A DNA stretch of 64,000 bases from Sphaerodactylus townsendi (Eukaryota): assembly GCF_021028975.2 (NCBI RefSeq), contig NC_059426.1, positions 44,578,001 through 44,642,000 on the forward strand. The letters run 5' to 3'. Position numbers and translations under genes: made by a program. Below the pieces are notes generated by a model. The model saw nothing but the letters and a program-made list of their open reading frames with translations. It was not told the DNA's origin and made no database searches. Positions 1,666 to 62,452 of this stretch are shown here, in pieces. Positions within the stretch are counted from its first letter, which is position 1. The number at the start of each line of letters is the position of its first letter.

Positions 1666-2148
1666 CAGAGGCATAGCTGGGCCAAACTGAGCCCGGTGCA
1701 CAGTCTATATTCCGCCCCCCATGACCCCCTGTGGCACCCCCCTGCAGTGCTCCCCTTTCCCCCTCCCACACTTACCTTAGTTCCTTTCCTATTCCTAGAA
1801 CTTTTTCAGACTGAAAAAAGGTCTATTCACAGTTCAGGCTTAAAAACGGCCTGATGGGAACTATACTTCCCAGAAGACCTTGTGAGCCCCAAGGTCTCCT
1901 TGGAACTGTAGTTCCTCAGGCCATTTTTAGCCTGTACTGTGAACAGGCCTTTTTTAAGCCTGAAAAAGTTCTAGGAAAAGGAAAGGAACTAAAGTAAGTG
2001 TGGGAAGGGAGTGGGGGGTGGAGCGCTGTGGGGGGAAGGAGGAGGGACCTGGGGAAGGGGGAGGGGGAATTTTGCACCCCCCACAAGACCCAAAACCATG
2101 CACCCGGTGTGTGGCACATTCTCCTGTCCCCTGGTAGCCCCGCCTCTG
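1666..2148. mobile_element. hAT-type MITE with long internal inverted arms
   Basis: Ends CAGAGGCATAGCT / AGCCCCGCCTCTG; 8-bp TSD atgttatc/acattatc; internal inverted arms ~1750-1880 vs ~1900-2020. Confidence 0.8.
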
Positions 2149-3944: not shown

Positions 3945-4170
3945 CAGAAGCCAAACAGGTGGTGACTAGAGACAGGACATTTTCTGTGGTGGCATCTTGC
4001 CTCTGGAATGCTCTTCCCCCTGAAACTCACCTAGAGCCTCCTTTATTTTCTTTTAGGCACCAAGACAAAATGTATCTTTTCTACCCAGACTTTCAATGGT
4101 TTTTTAAAAAAATCTTAATTGGGGTTTTTATCTTATCAGCTTTTTAATGGTCTGTTTCTGTTTTATGAAT
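3945..4170 (+). mobile_element. L2 LINE 3' fragment (ORF2 C-terminus and start of 3' UTR)
   Basis: TRDRTFSVVASCLWNALPPETHLEPPLFSFRHQDKMYLF matches the L2 C-terminal motif RAFSV.AP.LWN.LP...R.....FR...KT.LF. Confidence 0.85.
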
Positions 4171-4172
4171 AA

Positions 4173-4216
4173 CTAGCAATAAAGCACATTGTGTGAAAAA
4201 ATACAACGGGCTCTAG
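4173..4216 (-). mobile_element. Helitron-like 3' terminus (subterminal hairpin plus CTAG|T)
   Basis: Minus strand reads ctag-agcccgttgt-attttttcac-acaatgtgct-ttattg-CTAG|T: an imperfect 10-bp stem (8/10) ~10 nt before a CTAG end followed by T. Confidence 0.55.
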
Positions 4217-4265
4217 AAAACTAATTCTCTGATGACAAGAGATGTGAATGAGGCATATCCACAGG

Positions 4266-4778
4266 AATGTCCTCTCTAGTTCCCACTTACAGGTTCCCAC
4301 TTGCTAGAACCCACTATATTTTTTTCATACAACAGGCTCCTCATCTTCACAGGCACCCTGCGGGCTCTCCCCCACAGTAGGGATTCAGCTTTACGAACAG
4401 AGGGTGCCTATGGACAGGGGGACAACTCTCCATATTTTCACAGGCACCCTGATGCTCCCCTTTGCAAAGCTGGGATGCAGCTTTGCAAATGGCACGTGCC
4501 TATGAAGATGGGGAGATCTCTCCCCATCTTCACAAGCACTATGCTGCCCCTCTTTGGCAAAGTTGGGATGTTTGCACTGCAAAGGGGAGCACCAGGGTGC
4601 CTGTGAAAATATGGAGAGTTGTCCCCCTGTCCATAGGCACCCTCTGTTCGTAAAGCTGAATCCCTACTGTGGGGGAGAGTCCGCAGGGTGCCTGTGAAGA
4701 TGAGGAGCCTGTTGTATGAAAAAAATATAGTGGGTTCTAGCAAGTGGGAACCTGTAAGTGGGAACTAGAGAGGACATT
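4266..4778. repeat. Long near-perfect inverted repeat (palindrome)
   Basis: 4266-4466 is the reverse complement of 4578-4778 with 2 mismatches. Mirror ORFs 4301(+) and 4743(-) give near-identical N-terminal peptides. Inner 14-bp stem at 4503-4516/4519-4532. Confidence 0.97.
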
Positions 4779-4968
4779 GCCACCTTTTCCTTCTGTTCTC
4801 CCCTTCTTTTCTGCCTCTCACTCTCCATCCTGCCATCTCTTCTCTTAATATTCTCTATTTTTGTCCCACTACCTCAACTCTCTTTCCTATCCGCAACTCC
4901 AGCTCTCAGTTCCACTACCCCAGCTCTATTTTTAACTTTCTGCCTGGCTACCCCAGCTCTGACTTTCT

Positions 4969-5109
4969 GGCTCATTCCACACATGCAGAATAATGCACTT
5001 TCAAACTGCTTTCAGTGCTCTTTGAAGCTGTGCAGAATGGCAAAATCCACTTGCAAACAGTTGTGAAAGTGGTTTGAAAACGCATTATTTTGCGTGTGCA
5101 GAAGGGGCC
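4969..5109. mobile_element. PIF/Harbinger-type MITE (141 bp, palindromic)
   Basis: TIR GGCTCATTCCACACATGCAGAATAATGC / GCATTATTTTGCGTGTGCAGAAGGGGCC; 3-bp TSD tct/tct. Confidence 0.8.
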
Positions 5110-6374
5110 TCTCTGTCTTTCTGCCCTGTTACCCCCAACTGTTTCTGCCTTAAGAAGTGTTACTGGTGATTTTTGCTCCTGTCCCCTCCCCCCATTTACA
5201 GCTGGCATACTACCAGACATACCCACACATCCTGTAAAACCCACAACAGCCAATTGTTGTTGTTGCTGTTGTCATTAAGAGGAACTGAAGGCTAAGGAAG
5301 CACATTTCTATACAGCTAATGGTGAGGTAGTTTTGCATCCATCCTTCCCACAGAATTGGAGATACCAAACCTTGGGGGTAAGGATGGGTAAAGGTGTTGT
5401 GTTCAGTCAATAAAGTGGCTTAGTGTACAAGGTCATTCTTTCCTACAATATCTAGAAATGGTTTAAAAACATGAACAAATTGTTAAAATAAATATGTGTC
5501 TTTTGAAAGGGAATTTCAGGGTTTTATAACTACTTTAAATATTTTTCACTAGTGAAGTACTGCTTGCCTTGACCAACAAATATTTGTACTGCTGCTACAG
5601 TTGTGATTGCAATGAAAGAATCTTCTGCAGAGTCTGAGCTGATGTTTTCAATCATCGCCTTTTTGTGGGTTAATAAGATTGGAGGATACAGGCTGAGTGT
5701 GTGTTGCCGAGCTCTCATAGATGTCCCAAAGCCCTGGCTTCACCAGGCAAATGAGAAAGGTTTTAATTTAAGGTTTGATTTAAAGGAGAGACACTTTTTC
5801 ATTAGTGTAGCAGTTACCCACTCAGTTGGGAGCCATTGGAAGAAATTAAAGTACATTTGGCAATCTATATGCTTCATGTGGGAGTGAAATCTATCTTTCT
5901 ATTTATCTACCTATCTGTCTAATCATCTAAATGCCATGGCATTGAGTGGTAAATTTACCTTTCTCTAAACTTTTGCAAAATTTGTCTATAAATCCATTAG
6001 AATGAAGACAGCTGTAATTCATTGTTAGCTGCTCCATCGACCCTCCACTTCAGTCAGCAACTTCCATTTACATTTTCACAAAGCTAATTCCTTTGTCCAT
6101 GAAATAGACCAATTTCCCTTTTCACTGTTTCAAATACACCTGAAGCAACTGTTTGGGATGGTCTGTATTTATTCAGACTGACAACAGGCTTTACACACAT
6201 AACTGCATGGAGTGATTCCTCTTCGGCAAGTGTGAGGATGAGCCTGCTTAATTATCCTCTTCATTTTTGAGGATTTCTGTGGAAGATTTAGATAAATATA
6301 GTTAAGCTCATTTGTAAAAGTATTGGTAGCTGCCACCAGCAATGCTGGTTCCTGGATTCTGGATCCTGGTTGAA

Positions 6375-8686: not shown

Positions 8687-8820
8687 CATAGGTGTCAAAC
8701 TTGTGGCCCTCCAGATGTTATGGACTACAGTTCCCATCACCCCTGCCAGCACCATGCTGGCAGGGGATGATGGGAACTGTAGTCCATAACATCTGGAGGG
8801 CCGCGAGTTCGACACCTGTG
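8687..8820. mobile_element. Palindromic hAT-type MITE (134 bp), related to 1327-1459
   Basis: TIR CATAGGTGTCAAACT / AGTTCGACACCTGTG; exact 8-bp TSD ATCTAGTG; shares the core ccagatgttatggactaca..tcccatca with 1327-1459. Confidence 0.92.
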
Positions 8821-18815: not shown

Positions 18816-19307
18816 GGCTGTTTCTGCATGGCCAGCTGAGCGGGGTGCATCAGCATAGCTTATGCCGATGCACCCCCCAGGACCATTCGCATGGACGGTC
18901 CCACTGGCTGCACAGGCTGAGCCACCACCAAATGGTTCTTACCTTCTGCCGCCTTCTGTCGCGTTGTGGAGTTCAGGGGACACGCCACCATGGCCAGAGC
19001 GATGGCTCTGGGGTCGGAGGGCCAGGAGGCGTGTCCCCTGGCTTCCACAAAGTGACAAAAGGCGGCAGAAGGTAAGAGACGTTTGGGAGGGCTGCGGGGA
19101 AAATGCTGACTTTCACCTGGTGCCGTTAGCTCAGCACCAAATGGAAGCTGGCATTTTCCAAAGCAAGGTTCAAAAACTCTGTTTCAGGTGGGAGGGGGGA
19201 AGAGCACTGCTGCATTGATTTGGCAGTGGCACCTATGCAAAGGGTCCCCCCCAAAAGGGTGTTTTACCGGGCCGAAATCAACTATTTTGGCCCATGCGGA
19301 AACAGCC
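18816..19307. mobile_element. PIF/Harbinger-type MITE (GGCYGTTTCYGCA family)
   Basis: TIR GGCTGTTTCTGCATGG / CCATGCGGAAACAGCC; internal ggcgtgtcccctggc motif shared with 25442 and 51562. Confidence 0.8.
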
Positions 19308-22304: not shown

Positions 22305-23350
22305 GTGAACACCATTACCTCCTGCATGTTTTTATGCACATGTGTTTATTAGAAAGAATTCCTCTTTGGTGATTTCCCCCCTTTTCCATTTCTTGTACAT
22401 GTCCCTTTTAAATTTCAGCTCAGTTGAAAGTTCTCCAGACATCCATTCTGGTTTCCTTATACATGTCTCATTTTTTCTCCTCATTGGAACTGTTTGAAAT
22501 TGTGACTTCAAGATCTCACTTTTAAGAACCTCCCATCCATCATGAACTCACTTCTCTTTTAGTATTCTTAACTATGGGATCACACCTAACAGTTTCCTAA
22601 GTTTACTAAAATCAACTTTCTTAAAGTCAAGAATGTATGTCTAACTATGCTTGGCATCCCCTTGGCACTCTATAACAAACTCCAGGAGAATATGGTTACT
22701 CCTACCTACCACTAAGGAGCCTGCCACTTCCATCCCATTAACCAGGTCATCATTGTTGTTTAGGAGCAGATCTAAAATAGTTGATCCGCTTGTTGCCTTG
22801 ACTCTAGACCATGAAATTGAAATTGAAATCTCTTGTAGGATTAACTTAGGTAAGTTAAGGGAGGGGGAGGGGGTCTGACATCTGGACATGGCCCACCCAC
22901 CCTAGCGAAGGGAGGAAGAGGGGTGGCATGCAAGGGAAGGGCAGTGAGGAAGGGGAAGGGAGGGAGGGGTGGCATGCAAGGGAGGGTGAGGGAGGGGTAA
23001 GTGAAGAATTTTTGGGATCTTACAGTCTTGGCAGAGTTTGACTCCCAACAAATATCAGGATAATTGAAATCTGCCATTACTACTACTTCTCTCCTTTCTG
23101 AAAGTTTGGTCATCTGTTCCAGGAAGGCATTATCCAAATCTTCAGTCTGATGGGGGGGGGGGGGGGGGAGGTCTGTAATAGACCCTCACAATGAAATCAC
23201 TGTTGTTTCCCCATTAATATTTACCTAGATGCTCTCAACCTGACTTCCTGGATTTGAGTCACCTGCTCACAGGTATAATCATCCCTCATATATAATCCTC
23301 CTCTTCCTTTCCTAGTTGGTCTATTTCTCTGAAATAAGTTATACCCCTCA
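22305..23350 (-). mobile_element. CR1 LINE fragment, APE endonuclease domain (pseudogenised)
   Basis: DNAFLEQMTKLSERREVVVMADFNYPDICWESNSAK and TSGSTILDLLLNNNDDLV..GSL...SNHILLEF match the CR1 EN motifs GDFN.PDI.W and LDL...SDH; purine-rich insert at ~22857-22998. Confidence 0.88.
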
Positions 23351-25441: not shown

Positions 25442-25896
25442 GGCCGTTTCTGCACCGCCACACTTGGGGGGTGCGTCAGCGTATACGACGCCAACGCATC
25501 TCCCCGGGACCGTTTGCAGAAACAGTCCCGGTAGTGGCGGGGAAGATAGCGCAGCGCTGTGCCGTCACCCGAACGCCTTATCTTCCCTCCGACCTTCCGG
25601 AGCGTCGCCCAGGAGTCGCAGGGCAGGGGGCGTGTCCCCAGGCCTGGACAACGCGCCGGAAGGTCGGAGGGAAGGTAAGGCGTTCGGGAAAGGGGAGCGA
25701 TGGCAGCGATTAAAAGCCACTGTTTTCGAAATGCCTCGCCCAGGGAGTGAGGTTCGGAAACAGCGGCTTCATGCCGCTCGGGGGTTGCGAGGCCGCCGCT
25801 GCTGTGATACAGCAGTGGCGGCCGTGCAAACCCCTCCCCAGGGACGCTGTTTTTAGCATCCCTAGGTCGCTGTATTCCGCCCGTGCGGAAACAGCC
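25442..25896. mobile_element. PIF/Harbinger-type MITE with internal GC-rich fold-back
   Basis: TIR GGCCGTTTCTGCAC / GTGCGGAAACAGCC; internal arms cccgaacgccttatcttccctccgaccttccgg / ccggaaggtcggagggaaggtaaggcgttcggg. Confidence 0.85.
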
Positions 25897-26928
25897 ACAG
25901 ACCCTATTTGGCACTGTTTTGGTCCTTTCTGTGGCCTCTGCTTTGGTGGCCTTTTTTAAAAAAAAAGGGTGGTGGTTTTTATTGACTTGCCCATCAAGGG
26001 TCAAGTTGCGAGTGATGACATTTTCACACCACACAGCTGATTCTGATTGGCTCTGCAATTATACCACAGAGCCAAATCAAAGCAAGAACCATGTGTTTTC
26101 CTTTCACACTTTCATGTTATATTGCAGCTTTTCCTTATCAGCAACAAAATTGGTGTGGGGACTAGTTTGGCTAGAAATGTATGGGATAGAAATGTATGGG
26201 AAAGCACACCTTTCTTCTGCTCTATTAATAGGTACAGAAGAGTGCCCCATTTTCAGACATGCAAAGATGGAGCATATGAATTTTGCCTGACTGGGATGCA
26301 GGCCTTGAAAGAAAACTGGCCAGGTGGTATAGAAAACCAGCTGGGCTGGTTTAAAACAGGCCAGATGGCATCTCAGATTCTTTGTCCTTTTCCCATACAT
26401 GAAGAAGATGCAGACCCAGTTTGCCTGCTTTTTAGATTGCTCTCAGGTTTAAGTGAAGGTGCAAGCTTTAAAGTTATTATAACTTGGCTGTTTTCTTTGA
26501 TAAATTACATGAATAACATTTGAGACAATCCATGGTTAAATATTTATGCCTAGCACTATAGGACCAGGAATAAAAGCACAAAGAACCCCTAGAAGGATAA
26601 ATATATTTACCTAAATAAATTACCAAGACAAATACACTCCTATGTGTTCTGTACCAATAAACAGTAGGTATTCACTAAATTGTGAAATACAAATGGCTCA
26701 TTTCCTCTGAATGTACACTGAAAGATCTATAACGTGTTACACATTTCCTGTATTTTGCATATATATTTCAATATTCATCATGAAAAGGCTTGCATATGTG
26801 TCAATATACATTACTTTGCATACATTAAGAAAATATTTTGGTGGGGTTTTTTACACTTTATGGGTGCATTTTAACATAGGTGGGGTGGAGAATGTGAAAA
26901 TTCTATTTCATGATTAACCCTTTGTCGG

Positions 26929-38257: not shown

Positions 38258-38649
38258 CAGTGGTGGGATCCAAACATTTTAGTAACAGGTTCCCATGGTG
38301 GTGGGATTCAAACTGTGGTGTAGCGCCAATGGGGATGGGCGGGGCACGACGGGGGCATGGCTGGGCATTCCTGGGGTGGGGCATTCCTGGGCGGGGCTGT
38401 GGCAAGGATGCAGCTGCTGCGCCGGTCCTTGGGCGGGAAACGAATGCACGCAGGCGCAGGCCGCCACGCACGCTGGTGCACCTCCTGCTAGACTGCTTCA
38501 AGTTCTGCGCACTACTGCTGAGAGGAGGGGCATAACTAAGGCAAAAATCACGTGGCAAAATCACCAATTAGTAACCCCCTCTCGGCACACACAAATAATT
38601 AGTAACCTACCCTTGGGAACCTGTGAGAACCTGCTGGATCCCACCTCTG
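38258..38649. mobile_element. hAT-type MITE (392 bp)
   Basis: TIR CAGTGGTGGGATCCA / TGGATCCCACCTCTG; exact 8-bp TSD CCCAGAGT. Confidence 0.92.
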
Positions 38650-45705: not shown

Positions 45706-45949
45706 ATTCTACCCTACTACTTCAACACATGTATGATACTAGAAGTTAAGCCAACTGTAGTAAACAATACAGCGGGCTCTAAACAGCTATTGTTGGCAGG
45801 CACAGCAACAATGCAATATATAGTTTCCCCTCCTTTTTATTTTAGAAGATGTGTCTTCAAATCTTCATAGACTCGATATGAGAACCCTGTTGATTCTCAT
45901 GCCAAGTCTGTGAAGCTTCTAAGACATGTCCTCTAACATTAAAAAAGGG

Positions 45950-46430
45950 ACTGATCCTGAATGCTGGACTGAGCACACTCTCCTTCCCCCACCTCTCGTC
46001 CCAAGGCCCGCAGCTCTTGGGAAGGGAAGGGGGCATGAAACTGCAGCTGGACTGAACAGTCTCAGTCCAGCACCCAGGATCAGGTTTTCCTCCAGTCCCC
46101 CCCACTTCTTATCCCAAGGCCAGCAGCTCTTAAGAAGGGACGTGGTGAGCACAATTCTGCATGCTGGACTGTGTGCACTTACATCAACACCAAGGATCAT
46201 GCTCTCCTTTCCCCCACCTCTCATCCCAAGGCCCTCAGCTCTTGGGAAGGGGGTTTAGGGGCATGATAGTGAGTGTTTGACTGAGCACGCTCCATTCAGC
46301 ACCTAAAATAGGACTCTCCTTTTCCCCCACCTCATATCCTAAGGCCCGCAGCTCTTGGGAAGGGTGGTGGGGGCATGATCCTGCATGCTGGACTGAACAC
46401 ATGCTCAGACCAGCACCCAGACCTTCATTT
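45950..46430. repeat. Tandem array, ~113-bp unit, about 4 copies
   Basis: Anchor cc(c/t)aaggcc..cagctcttgggaaggg at 46000, 46113, 46225 and 46338. Confidence 0.85.
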
Positions 46431-50945: not shown

Positions 50946-51561
50946 TACTAATCCTGGCCTCCACCACCAGTGAAGGATCTCCAGGATTACTAGATGCACA
51001 GAAATCTAATGGAAAGATGGTCCTCAGTCTGGGGCTCAAAGAAGTGGCCTCAAGGCAGGCAAACACTATACTTCAGAGAAGGATTCTTTCCCCAGTTATA
51101 GGGCATACAGACAAGTTAATTTCTTTCAGGACTTGGAAACAAATGGAGCCACTGCATAGGCCAGGTATCTGTCCCAGCTGTATAGAGAGAAGGGTTTTGT
51201 CATGCCCCCAGAGAAGCTCTTATTATTTCTTTATAAGTCTCAGTTTTAGTTACAATGGGTTTAGTTCTTTCGTAAGTGTTCTAAGGGAGGGAACTTTAGT
51301 CAGATCCTGTTCCTTTACGAATTCCCCTAGAGGCAGTTTTCCTTTCATTACCCAGTAATGCCTCTGTTTAGCTAGTGCTAGTGGAGTTGGAAGACTGTAA
51401 TATCTCTTACATCTATGGTGTATCATCTATGGTGTATAGTCTATAAAGAATCAAGTCAAGGTGTTAACAGAAAGTAGAATCCAGATAAAGGACACTGAAG
51501 GAACCAAGAGAAAGCACAGACAAAGGTGGACTTTCTTGGAAGAAGTCAAGAAAGAATCAAA

Positions 51562-52094
51562 GGCCCTTTCCGCACGGGCCTAATATGGCGGCCTGGGGAC
51601 GGCAAAAACACCGTCCCCAGGGAGCCGTTCGCACAGAGGGCACAGCTGCTTCGCAGCCACGCCGCCCTCGCGGTGCGAAGCCACCGTTTTCCTACCTCAC
51701 TTCCCAAGCGAAGTTTACAGAAAACGGCCATGGACTTCGAGGCATGCCGCTAGCCGATAGCGAGCAGCGGCTCAAGGCGCCCTTCCCTCTCCCCATGTCT
51801 GGTCAGCCTACCACCTGCTCTGTGGCCCTCCAGTGGCGTCGCCCCGAGGAGAGCCTGAGGCACGCGCCCCTCTGCCCTGCGACTCCGGAGTGGTTGCGCA
51901 GGGCAGGGGGCGTGTCCCCTGGCCTCGGCGATGTGCCAGAGGGCCGCAGAGCAGGTAGGTCGACAGGACGATGGCGCAGCGCAACACCGTCGTCCCGGGA
52001 GGTTCTGGGACCATTCATGCGAACGGTCCCAGAGGGGTTGGGTCAGCGTCATGTACATCGACCCAACCCCTACCGTGGCTGTGCGGAAATGGCC
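51562..52094. mobile_element. PIF/Harbinger-type MITE
   Basis: TIR GGCCCTTTCCGCAC / GTGCGGAAATGGCC; TSD aaa/aaa; CpG-rich; shares gcagggcagggggcgtgtcccc with 25442. Confidence 0.85.
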
Positions 52095-60500: not shown

Positions 60501-61966
60501 CTGGCACATTTGGCTCTGCCAGATGTAGGCCTGCTATCACATCATTTGATCTGCTGACAATGTGCACTGCCTTAAAAAGAGGAAAGGAAAGGAAATGCCT
60601 AGGTGACTCTTTTCCAAATCGCACATATTCTTTGAGTTAAGAACGAAACGTGAGACCAAAGTTAGCTTTTAATTACATTTCCTTCCTTACCTCCAACAAA
60701 CAAAATTTTATAACTTTCCCAATGAAGAAGGCCATGTTTTGTGAATTACTTGCTTGGAATCTTCCCAGGAGCAAAGTTTCTTAGGAAACGTTCTATTATT
60801 TGGATTAATCAAAGGTAGAATCTCATTTTCAAATATTGGCTTGACTTATTTTGCAGGGCACTTGTGGCTTTTTCTTTTCTGCTTTGAAGCTTTCATTTAC
60901 TTGGCTACCTGGGAAGGGTTCCTTGCAGTGGAACGAACATGACTTGAAGCAAGATGTTGTGTATGGGAGAGGGAAGATAGAGAGGAAGCATTGCCTTCTA
61001 TTATAGAAATGAATGCTCTCACGTTTGTATTAAAAGAACAATTTAAAGTCATGTGGAGAAGGAAAGACATCTGTGGAGAGAAAACCAGAGTGCTGTTTAA
61101 ATGAAGTATTCAAAATAAGTATCATTTAAATTTGTCCTTCCTAATAACATGTGACCCTCCCCCCTCCAATTCCTTCAGTTTTGGCATTGTGGGATGGTAT
61201 CATTTTGTAAGGATTAAAATATGAAAAATGTGTCTACATTTTAACATGTGATTAAACAAGCAAGGCTAAGTATTAAATCTGACTCCTCAGTACGCTGAGG
61301 AGCATTTTTACAAGTGGAAAGTTATTCTGCTTAGACGGATCATCCATTTTCCAGAACCTTTTAAACCCGCCTAATATATTGAACGTCAAAAAGGCCATAA
61401 AATCTCTCTTAACTATTGATATCTATTTGTAGATGGCATTATAAGTCCTGACATGCCTTTGAATAAGCCAATGGCTTTATTCAAGCAAAGGTTGGGTACT
61501 TTGGTCTGCTAATTTCACAGCAATGCTGCCTTGTTAGAGTGGAGAGCTGTTGATTTTTTAAAAAAAATAGAGTCCAATCTGGATCTAGAAAGATTAGCAT
61601 GGCTTTTGCCTTTCTCTCTTCAGTGGGATATGCATTGCGCCTGTAGCCTTTTAGCTCTTTCTATTCGTGATTAATCTGGTTGGTAAAATGTTGTAAAACT
61701 TAAGTTCCTGATTCACTATATTTATTTTTAGATTTCTTTGCCAGGCAGTGCAGAAAGGGCATAGTCCACTTGCACCACAATTGTTCATGGGAAACTTTGA
61801 TCTGTATCCTATTGAAATCATTGGAAAAAAATCCTGCTGTATTTATTTAAAATATTTATACACTGCCTTATGTTCCGAAACTCAAAGCAGCTAACAAAAC
61901 AGCAAAAGCTGCAACAGAGATATCATAAGGGTCCAGTAAGTTAAAATCAATGCACAAGTAAGCTCA

Positions 61967-62452
61967 GGCTGTTTCTGCATTACCCCAAAACAGCACTCTT
62001 GGGACGGTAAAAACATCATCCCTGGGGCACTGTTTGCACAGCTGCCGTGCTCACCCCTCCGAAATGGCAGGAAAACGCTGTTTTCAAAACTCGCTCAATG
62101 AATGAGTTTTTTGGAAAGTGGCGTCTTCCCACTGGTGCCATGCGAAGCACTGCTGTGAGGGCGCTGCTTTTAGCCGCTTCCGGTTTGTTGTTTGTACCTA
62201 CCTTTTCTCCTGCGAAGCTCTGGATGGAGGAAAGTTGGAGGGCAGTGTGGGTGTGTCCCTTCGTCTGTCCAAAATTTCACAGGGAGAAAAGGTAGGTACA
62301 CAACAAACTGGAGGCAGCTCCATGTGGAGCCGCCCCTGCAGGCCACATCAACATTGGGACAGCCCACACGGGACTTTGCGATTGGTCCCGAGACTCCACT
62401 GGCATAAATTATGTCGGTGGCCAGCTGCTTCTGGTGCTGTGCAGAGACAACC
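61967..62452. mobile_element. PIF/Harbinger-type MITE
   Basis: TIR GGCTGTTTCTGCA / TGCAGAGACAACC; TSD tca/tca. Confidence 0.78.

What the first reader, a model, noticed from the sequence alone, without database searches (positions are those of the whole stretch)
4266..4778. 513-bp near-perfect palindrome built from sub-repeats, with a second hairpin at its centre
Seen: ~201-bp arms differ at only 2 positions, whereas neighbouring repeats are visibly decayed. The 111-bp spacer holds a perfect 14-bp stem (TGAAGATGGGGAGA-TC-TCTCCCCATCTTCA). The sub-repeat TTCACAGGCACCCTG recurs in each arm, with a variant in the spacer. Established: long, nearly identical inverted repeats form cruciforms, tend to be unstable, and give long dsRNA (an ADAR/Dicer substrate) if transcribed. 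Inference: this is a young fold-back element, a recent template-switch inverted duplication, or a pair of arms homogenised by gene conversion.
Basis: partly seen in the sequence, partly recalled or inferred. Interest (0 to 1): 0.75.

Follow-up and report, generated by a model that had tools for sequence, protein, structure and literature searches.

The report
Young copying-slip palindrome in lizard repeat
A real 513-base near-perfect DNA palindrome in a probable lizard genome appears to be absent from a close relative, whose sequence there points to one arm with the middle reversed, so it likely arose recently in a single DNA-copying slip inside an old repeat: a known kind of mutation, longer than most catalogued cases, with no function shown.

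Summary
Observation confirmed: 201-nt arms, 2 mismatches, 111-nt spacer, perfect 14-bp central stem.

It is not a fold-back transposon. It has no target duplication. No second locus at 94% or more over the arm core was seen in 4 runs. Diverged paralogs run straight through its right end.

Contigs of relative C (about 2.5% diverged) join the left flank to the reversed spacer and carry the right arm into the right flank. That is one arm with an inverted spacer. A paralog present in 4 of 4 runs has the same left join.

The window equals that state after one inter-strand template switch of type 1-3-4-2, which copies 312 nt backwards. The single-arm model restores the host repeat's 92/92/91 period. 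Youth explains the 2 mismatches; conversion is not needed.

The host repeat looks like a non-autonomous Helitron (partly tested). Relatives B and D are ambiguous. Expression is untested.

This is a known mutation class; its tract is longer than the ape survey maximum of 128 nt. The scan has noted this class on other DNA, but no look-alike of this sequence.

The parts
4266..4466 (+). Left arm: the new, inverted copy of 4578-4778; keeps the ancestral letters at both mismatch sites
   Evidence: no left arm in organism C contigs; organism B contig is identical to it over 221 nt and is joined to the right flank
4467..4577 (+). Spacer, inverted relative to organism C and to a paralog
   Evidence: X7 record 16 (joint 4267 to 4576, opposite strands, 0 differences in 117); joint 4266 to 4574 in 4 of 4 runs
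4266..4577 (+). Inferred 2-to-3 fragment copied backwards in the switch (312 nt), replacing about 121 nt; net gain 189 nt
   Evidence: model
4503..4532 (.). Perfect 14-bp stem with 2-nt loop; junction of two oppositely oriented units of the host repeat; older than the event
   Evidence: present unchanged in organisms B and C; about 90 contigs per run read A at 4517
4578..4778 (+). Right arm: the original sequence, continuous with the right flank; carries both derived substitutions (4592, 4680)
   Evidence: paralog records cross 4778; X4, X7 and X8 records cross 4778
4265..4268 (.). New junction 1 (left flank to arm); only 2 nt (AA) shared by both sides
   Evidence: X3 record 1 exact over 4200-4295
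4576..4578 (.). New junction 2 (spacer to right arm); TTTGCA on both sides with 5 extra nt; it makes the 101-nt anomaly in the 92-nt period
   Evidence: bridged in X2, X3 and X8
4337..4707 (.). Array of about 92-nt hairpin units (24-nt motif in alternating orientation, 8 copies) belonging to the older host repeat
   Evidence: paralog joints with other unit arrangements (tables 5, 5c)
4173..4222 (-). Helitron-like 3' end of the host repeat: decayed 10-bp hairpin, then CTAG followed by T; heavily covered by paralog contigs
   Evidence: second copy at 45739-45789, E 0.0067; summed depth 36,998 against 72 on unique flank in X2
4709..4741 (-). Possible second, bypassed Helitron-like end inside the right arm (mirrored at about 4303-4335); weak
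   Evidence: 10 of 1000 shuffles score as high
4779..4960 (.). Continuation of the host repeat; its far end was not located
   Evidence: paralog records 4683-4805, 4717-4854, 4736-4861 and joints to 4912-4918

Best explanation
The palindrome is a real local inverted duplication with a reversed middle, likely made recently by one replication template switch inside an older hairpin-rich repeat that is probably a non-autonomous Helitron. Write L for the left flank, A' for 4578-4778, S for 4467-4577, R for the right flank, x for 11 unread letters and rc for reverse complement. Shown by contigs: organism C joins L through x to rc(S), and A' to R. Inferred: these link as L + x + rc(S) + A' + R, and this is the ancestral state; the window reads L + rc(A') + S + A' + R. 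Inferred mechanism: the polymerase, perhaps stalled by the hairpins in rc(S), left its template after about 4267, primed on the opposite strand at 4778 and copied 312 nt backwards. It then returned at 4578, beside a shared TTTGCA hexamer. This is order 1-3-4-2, or its mirror 3-1-2-4. The arms are 99% alike because the copy is young. It is most likely a neutral mutation scar that could fold into a long hairpin when single-stranded.
For: X7 record 16 bridges L (68 letters, 3 differences) to the reversed spacer (117 letters, 0 differences), and record 19 runs 4578-4832 unbroken at 0.81x flank depth (1.70x expected for two arms). These records differ from the window at 13 of 440 letters, like C's flanks (14 of 656, Fisher p 0.43) and unlike 4 paralog records (60 of 503, p 1e-7), so they are orthologous. 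A diverged paralog shows the same join from L to the reversed spacer in 4 of 4 runs, which polarises the change. The window's motif spacing is 92/101/91 and the single-arm model gives 92/92/91. Organism B shows neither new junction. At 4680, B, C and D carry the left-arm letter; at 4592, B does. Expected arm differences are 1.2 to 5.0 for an origin at the A/B or A/C split; 2 are seen (P 0.35 and 0.13). Type 1-3-4-2 is defined as an inverted repeat with an inverted spacer and makes up 23% of human-chimp events (PMC5453318).
Against: All evidence is short-read contigs; no listed piece spans the locus or ties C's records to unique flanks. C's join from rc(S) to A' is inferred from 7 shared letters and 20 unaligned letters, not bridged. 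B's arm contig sits at 1.5x depth, close to the two-arm expectation of 1.42x, and its left side is unexplained (103 unaligned letters, no cover at 4244-4265), so B could be a secondary loss. D shares the new right junction, but no left junction was laid and its depth ratio is 0.96 against 1.43 expected, which would fit a two-step origin. X3's arm depth is 1.13x against 1.43x expected (X2: 1.65x against 1.80x). The tool warns that depth is no copy number. Microhomology at junction 1 is only 2 nt, and junction 2 has 5 extra nt of unknown origin.
Confidence: 0.72

Rival explanations
1. Same young local origin, but in two steps. Either the spacer first inverted between its flanking TGCAAA/TTTGCA hexamers and the arm was duplicated later, or a small inverted triplication or fold-back formed and then lost one segment.
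For: Organism D shares the new spacer-to-arm junction exactly but shows no left junction and no depth excess. The ancestral spacer is flanked by a 6-nt inverted repeat. Small inverted triplications have a median 160-nt inverted part and 6-nt junctions and are unstable (PMC13334657 passages).
Against: It needs two events where one explains both junctions. D's run is shallow (record depths 3-13), its spacer record starts with 7 letters of arm sequence, and a hole proves nothing. No third copy of any segment remains.
Confidence: 0.15
2. An older palindrome whose arms are kept alike by arm-to-arm gene conversion, with the single-arm relatives being later losses.
For: Palindromes are deletion-prone (PMC3855049 passages). 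B's contig (left-arm letters joined to the right flank, 1.5x depth) is what a flipped two-arm allele would give.
Against: A paralog with 16 differences in 104 letters has C's arrangement. C's state would need an inversion, a deletion and an 11-nt insertion. The 4680 change was not copied to the left arm, and 2 of 201 fits the age without conversion.
Confidence: 0.06
3. Assembly or library fold-back artefact: the left arm does not exist in the animal.
For: The window has 3 N gaps; no long read was available; left-arm alleles are not displayed in organism-A contigs; X3's depth excess is small.
Against: A second sample holds the left flank plus 30 nt of arm exactly, mirrored by 30 nt of arm plus right flank, which is the pattern of a graph branch at a two-copy arm. 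The new inner junction is bridged in 3 runs of 2 studies. The left arm carries letters found in relatives, not in the window's right arm.
Confidence: 0.04
4. A young mobile fold-back element or long-TIR MITE whose ends are 4266 and 4778, or a palindrome formed during Helitron transposition and inserted as such.
For: Long inverted arms built of sub-repeats resemble fold-back elements (recalled); the genome is rich in palindromic MITEs.
Against: No symmetric target duplication was found, while MITEs at 8687-8820 and 38258-38649 show perfect 8-nt ones. At 94% likeness the arm core is covered by one record per run, whereas the MITE at 4969-5110 has sharp loose ends and about 100,000-fold summed depth. 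Paralogs cross 4778, and the ortholog in C is already in place with one arm.
Confidence: 0.03

Closest known systems
Short-range template-switch mutation, four-point type 1-3-4-2 / 3-1-2-4 (Loytynoja and Goldman, PMC5453318: passages and the human-chimp results section read; Walker et al., PMC7954356: passages read)
   Same: One reverse-complement fragment between two switch points gives an inverted repeat around an inverted spacer, with net length gain; needs an inter-strand switch.
   Different: The copied fragment is 312 nt, against median 12 and maximum 128 in the gold-standard ape set. It lies inside a repeat, and both surveys exclude repeat-masked sequence, so their length range is not a biological ceiling.
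Small inverted triplications, SIT (PMC13334657: passages read); ODIRA inverted CNVs (PMC10766183: abstract and outline only)
   Same: Replication-error origin, sub-kilobase size (SIT inverted part median 160 nt), short inverted microhomology of about 6 nt at a junction.
   Different: No DUP/INV/DUP: nothing is present three times, the spacer is inverted, and about 121 nt were replaced. Here it is a germ-line change shared by at least two samples.
Inverted tandem duplication with deletion in human long reads (Frith and Khan, PMC5829575: passages read)
   Same: Local inverted duplication next to a deletion, described as a rare rearrangement.
   Different: Spacer inversion is not stated in the passages seen; I did not see their figures or sizes.
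Non-autonomous Helitrons (features from Grabundzija et al., PMC4778049: passages read) as the host repeat
   Same: 3' CTAG followed by T, hairpin about 10 nt upstream, no TIR or TSD, possible bypassed internal end.
   Different: The 5' TC end was not located, no RepHel partner could be sought, and no repeat library was available to name the family.
Fold-back elements and long-TIR MITEs (recalled, not from a call)
   Same: Long inverted arms with internal sub-repeats.
   Different: No TSD, no dispersed copies seen, arms are not element ends.

Membership tests
Template-switch mutation type 1-3-4-2 | Derived sequence equals F1 + reverse-complement fragment + F3 of an ancestral sequence | tested here: met
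   Window = L + rc(rc(S)+A') + A' + R against organism C contigs; linkage of C's two contigs is inferred
Template-switch mutation type 1-3-4-2 | Inverted repeat with the spacer inverted against the ancestor | tested here: met
   Joint 4267 to 4576 on opposite strands in X7; paralog joint 4266 to 4574 in 4 of 4 runs
Template-switch mutation type 1-3-4-2 | Polarity: single-arm state is ancestral | tested here: met
   Paralog outgroup and regular 92/92/91 period
Template-switch mutation type 1-3-4-2 | One event rather than successive events | tested here: inconclusive
   Organism D shows the right new junction only; organism B's left side is unresolved
Template-switch mutation type 1-3-4-2 | Arose at a replication fork | not testable with these tools
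   Inferred from pattern only
TIR MITE / fold-back transposon | Target-site duplication at the arm ends | tested here: not met
   best exact match is a 4-mer placed asymmetrically; two MITEs in the window show 8-nt TSDs
TIR MITE / fold-back transposon | Dispersed copies with the same two ends | tested here: not met
   One record per run over the arm core at 94%; paralogs cross 4778. Contigs show presence, not absence
TIR MITE / fold-back transposon | Empty site in a relative | tested here: not met
   Organism C keeps the spacer and one arm rather than an empty site
TIR MITE / fold-back transposon | End-to-end match to an annotated consensus | not testable with these tools
   No Repbase or Dfam library; Rfam gave 0 hits in the window
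Conversion-maintained palindrome | Arms more alike than their age allows, sharing derived changes | tested here: not met
   2 of 201 against 1.2-5.0 expected; the 4680 change is unshared. Low power
Small inverted triplication (SIT) | DUP/INV/DUP with a segment in three copies | tested here: not met
   Self-comparison shows two near-identical arm copies only
Non-autonomous Helitron (host repeat) | 3' CTRR followed by T | tested here: met
   Minus strand ends CTAG then T at 4173/4172 and at 45739/45738
Non-autonomous Helitron (host repeat) | Short hairpin about 10 nt upstream of the 3' end | tested here: met
   Decayed stem in both copies; whole-piece folds only -3.1 and -6.6 kcal/mol
Non-autonomous Helitron (host repeat) | 5' TC end preceded by A | tested here: inconclusive
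   Far end not located; similarity continues past 4900 and is cut by a MITE
Non-autonomous Helitron (host repeat) | Many copies ending sharply at the CTAG; AT empty site; RepHel partner | not testable with these tools
   High summed depth at 4156-4212, but loose ends there were among the 2425 rows not shown; no genome held

The most novel reading that the evidence does not exclude
Hairpin-array, Helitron-like repeats of this lizard lineage are germ-line hot spots for long template switches of Okazaki-fragment size. The same process would have built their alternating 92-nt arrays and would keep producing near-perfect palindromes of 200 bp or more. This one locus may show four different states in four close relatives (one arm in C, altered left side in B, interrupted stem in D, full palindrome in A). 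That would be a class of 100-500 nt events that repeat-masked surveys exclude, and a route to fold-back-like elements without a transposase.
Probability: 0.17. Interest if true: 0.58.

Novelty: new member of a known kind. Interest (0 to 1): 0.27.

Why it matters
As it stands it is an ordinary mutation scar, but a well polarised one. It shows that a structure resembling a young fold-back transposon or a conversion-maintained palindrome can come from one copying slip. Its 312-nt tract falls between the short switches catalogued in apes (maximum 128 nt, repeats masked) and kilobase inverted CNVs. If such events prove common inside this repeat family, they would be a measurable source of long hairpins, with possible fragility or double-stranded RNA. 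Template switches are reported to create miRNA-type hairpins (PMC10710096, passages). None of this is shown for this locus.

Tried and rejected
No whole genome is held, so no genome-wide BLAST. Rfam: 0 matches in 64 kb. No RNA holder listed among 11 runs; this is no evidence on expression. A 30-nt unit motif gave 0 matches in metagenome contigs. Gene context is unresolved. Pfam on 40 of the 58 long ORFs found only a LINE-type endonuclease fragment below its cut-off; the 18 left out overlapped N gaps, known repeats or each other. Pfam on 15 of 59 crude exon candidates found that same fragment and one weak hit at E 0.09. PDB searches of 2 candidates gave 0 hits. An hAT MITE reading from the recalled look of the right end was rejected for lack of a TSD and because paralogs cross 4778. 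No cover at 4244-4287 in X8, at 4244-4265 and about 4575-4660 in X4, and at 4376-4441 in X3 are holes, which the tool says prove nothing by themselves. Earlier-findings search by sequence found 0 look-alikes. Literature: 'Helitron'+'gecko' gave 14 papers, 13 listed, none by title on such a family; 'gecko'+'palindrom'+'repeat'+'template switch' gave 5 papers, 4 listed, all unrelated. No supplements were read; length distributions in the supplements of PMC5453318 and PMC7954356 may bear on how unusual 312 nt is.

Full report
Observation. The arms are 4266-4466 and 4578-4778, 201 nt each, differing only at 4364/4680 and 4452/4592, around a 111-nt spacer. The 14-bp stem with a TC loop at 4503-4532 is perfect and lies 4.5 nt off centre. 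A 24-nt motif occurs 8 times in alternating orientation, in units of about 92 nt. The region folds at -300 kcal/mol as DNA, and 0 of 100 shuffles match that. The next-longest unrelated inverted repeats in the window are 84-92% complementary. The source is probably a lizard: this rests on earlier AI notes on the same genome and on repeat families I recall from geckos, not on a call that names the organism.

Is it real? No genome is held, so I used public runs: 11 listed, 5 laid as short-read contigs. In X3, a second sample of organism A, exact contigs cover 4200-4295, 4460-4778 and 4749-4843. The first and last each end 30 nt inside the arm, as expected if the assembly graph branches at a two-copy arm. 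The left one is one letter short of the tool's 31-letter bridging rule. The inner junction 4577/4578 is bridged in X2, X3 and X8. Arm depth is 1.65 times flank in X2 (1.80 expected) but only 1.13 in X3 (1.43 expected); the tool warns that depth is no copy number. No displayed organism-A contig shows the left-arm alleles, which I attribute to bubble removal (inferred). An artefact is unlikely but is not excluded by long reads.

It is not a transposon with these ends. No symmetric target duplication was found, while MITEs at 8687-8820 and 38258-38649 show perfect 8-nt ones in the same output. At 94% likeness, the arm core is covered by one record per run in all 4 runs. The true MITE next door (4969-5110) has sharp loose ends and about 100,000-fold summed depth. 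Diverged paralog contigs run from the right arm through 4778 into 4805-4861, so the right arm is internal to an older repeat.

The ancestral state. In organism C (X7) one 200-nt contig joins 4200-4267 (3 differences) through 11 unread letters to the reverse complement of 4576-4460 (0 differences). A second runs 4578-4832 without a break at 4778, at 0.81 times flank depth, with 20 unaligned letters in front of 4578. These records differ from the window at 13 of 440 letters, like C's flanks (14 of 656) and unlike 4 paralog records that I picked (60 of 503), so they are orthologous. C therefore reads left flank, 11 nt, reversed spacer, right arm, right flank; the link between the two contigs is inferred, not bridged. 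A paralog with 16 differences in 104 letters shows the same join (4266 to 4574, opposite strands) in 4 of 4 runs, which makes the single-arm state ancestral. The window alone agrees: its motif spacing is 92/101/91, the odd value spans 4577, and the single-arm model gives 92/92/91.

Mechanism. The window equals the ancestral left flank, plus the reverse complement of (reversed spacer + right arm), plus right arm and right flank. That is the four-point type 1-3-4-2 or its mirror 3-1-2-4: an inverted repeat with an inverted spacer, 23% of high-confidence human-chimp events, requiring an inter-strand switch (PMC5453318; passages, and one results section). The copied fragment is 312 nt, replaces about 121 nt and adds 189 nt. 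The left junction shares only AA. The right junction has TTTGCA on both sides with 5 extra letters of unknown origin. The reversed spacer can fold a hairpin of about 20 bp (-31 kcal/mol for the 111 nt) just past the first switch point, a plausible stall; this step is inference.

Why the arms are so alike. B's arm contig is identical to the left arm over 221 nt. B, C and D have C at 4680, and D shares the window's letter at 4592. Both differences are thus most simply substitutions on the right arm after the event; C's letter at 4592 was not displayed. Divergence from the window is 0.61% for B, 2.46% for C and 0.5% for D. Expected arm differences are 1.2 (A/B split) to 5.0 (A/C split), and 2 fits either. 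Conversion is not needed, though power is low.

Results against the reading. B lacks both new junctions in the displayed records, but its arm contig has 1.5 times flank depth, near the two-arm value, and 103 letters beyond 4571 are unexplained. It may be ancestral with a deletion, or a secondary loss. D has the new right junction, but no left junction was laid and there is no depth excess (0.96 against 1.43), in a shallow run. Its spacer is split into records ending at 4522 and starting at 4515, perhaps an insertion with an 8-nt duplication. A two-step origin therefore stays open (0.15). Tables were cut: 393 joints and 2425 loose ends were not shown.

Host repeat. On the minus strand, 4222-4173 ends in a decayed hairpin, six letters and CTAG followed by T. 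A second such end lies at 45739-45789 (E 0.0067). These are the 3' features described for Helitrons, including end bypass (PMC4778049, passages). A possible bypassed end inside the arm is weak (10 of 1000 shuffles). The 5' end was not located, so it looks like a non-autonomous Helitron but membership is not established.

Function. None is shown. Rfam gave 0 hits, and no host gene was identified. Long inverted repeats with short spacers are fragile in yeast, tested with 320-bp arms and a 12-bp spacer (PMC3855049, passages). This spacer is 111 nt but partly self-pairing, so hairpin formation on single strands is plausible and cruciform extrusion is unknown. Template switches can create miRNA-type hairpins (PMC10710096, passages); expression here is untested.

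Novelty. The class is known. The tract exceeds the 128-nt maximum of the gold-standard ape set, but that survey excludes repeat-masked templates (PMC7954356, passages). Replication-born small inverted triplications of similar size are described (PMC13334657, passages), as is a human inverted duplication with deletion (PMC5829575, passages). Two searches found no paper on this family or locus; no repeat library could be checked. The scan has noted spacer inversions and inverted duplications on other DNA but no look-alike of this sequence. Verdict: new member of a known kind, interest 0.27. The bolder reading, that this repeat family is a hot spot for long switches, has probability 0.17 and interest 0.58.

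Noticed in passing
window 4969-5110: Very high-copy palindromic MITE inserted in the right flank; sharp loose ends at 4968/4969 and 5109/5110 with T/A-rich flanks; PIF/Harbinger-like by recall.
   Followed up: partly
window 45738-46420: Second Helitron-like 3' end (minus strand) followed by three to four tandem units of about 113 nt, unrelated to the 92-nt units.
   Followed up: partly
window 8687-8820, 38258-38649 and 1327-1459: hAT-type MITEs (family by recall); the first two have perfect 8-nt target duplications, the third a 6-of-8 match. Used as positive controls.
   Followed up: partly
window 4515-4522, run X8 (organism D): Spacer split into a record ending at 4522 with 107 unaligned letters and one starting at 4515; possibly an insertion with an 8-nt duplication in the loop of the central stem.
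   Followed up: no
window about 4000-4265, run X4 (organism B): No orthologous cover at 4094 or 4244-4265, and 103 unaligned letters after 4571; possibly a separate deletion on the left side, or a filter hole.
   Followed up: no
window 60501-60570 (minus): Best-scoring exon-like stretch with strong splice signals and a 23-codon open frame; no Pfam or PDB match.
   Followed up: partly
window 22707-23185 (minus): Decayed LINE-type endonuclease fragment, PF14529 at E 9e-05, below the curated cut-off.
   Followed up: no
window 1760-2009, 18928-19086, 25568-25688, 62172-62319: Further palindromic cores lying inside longer repeats; candidates for the same template-switch test.
   Followed up: no
window 25501-26000 and 51501-52000: Two CpG-rich 500-nt bins (observed/expected 0.87 and 0.81) that share sequence with each other.
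   Followed up: no
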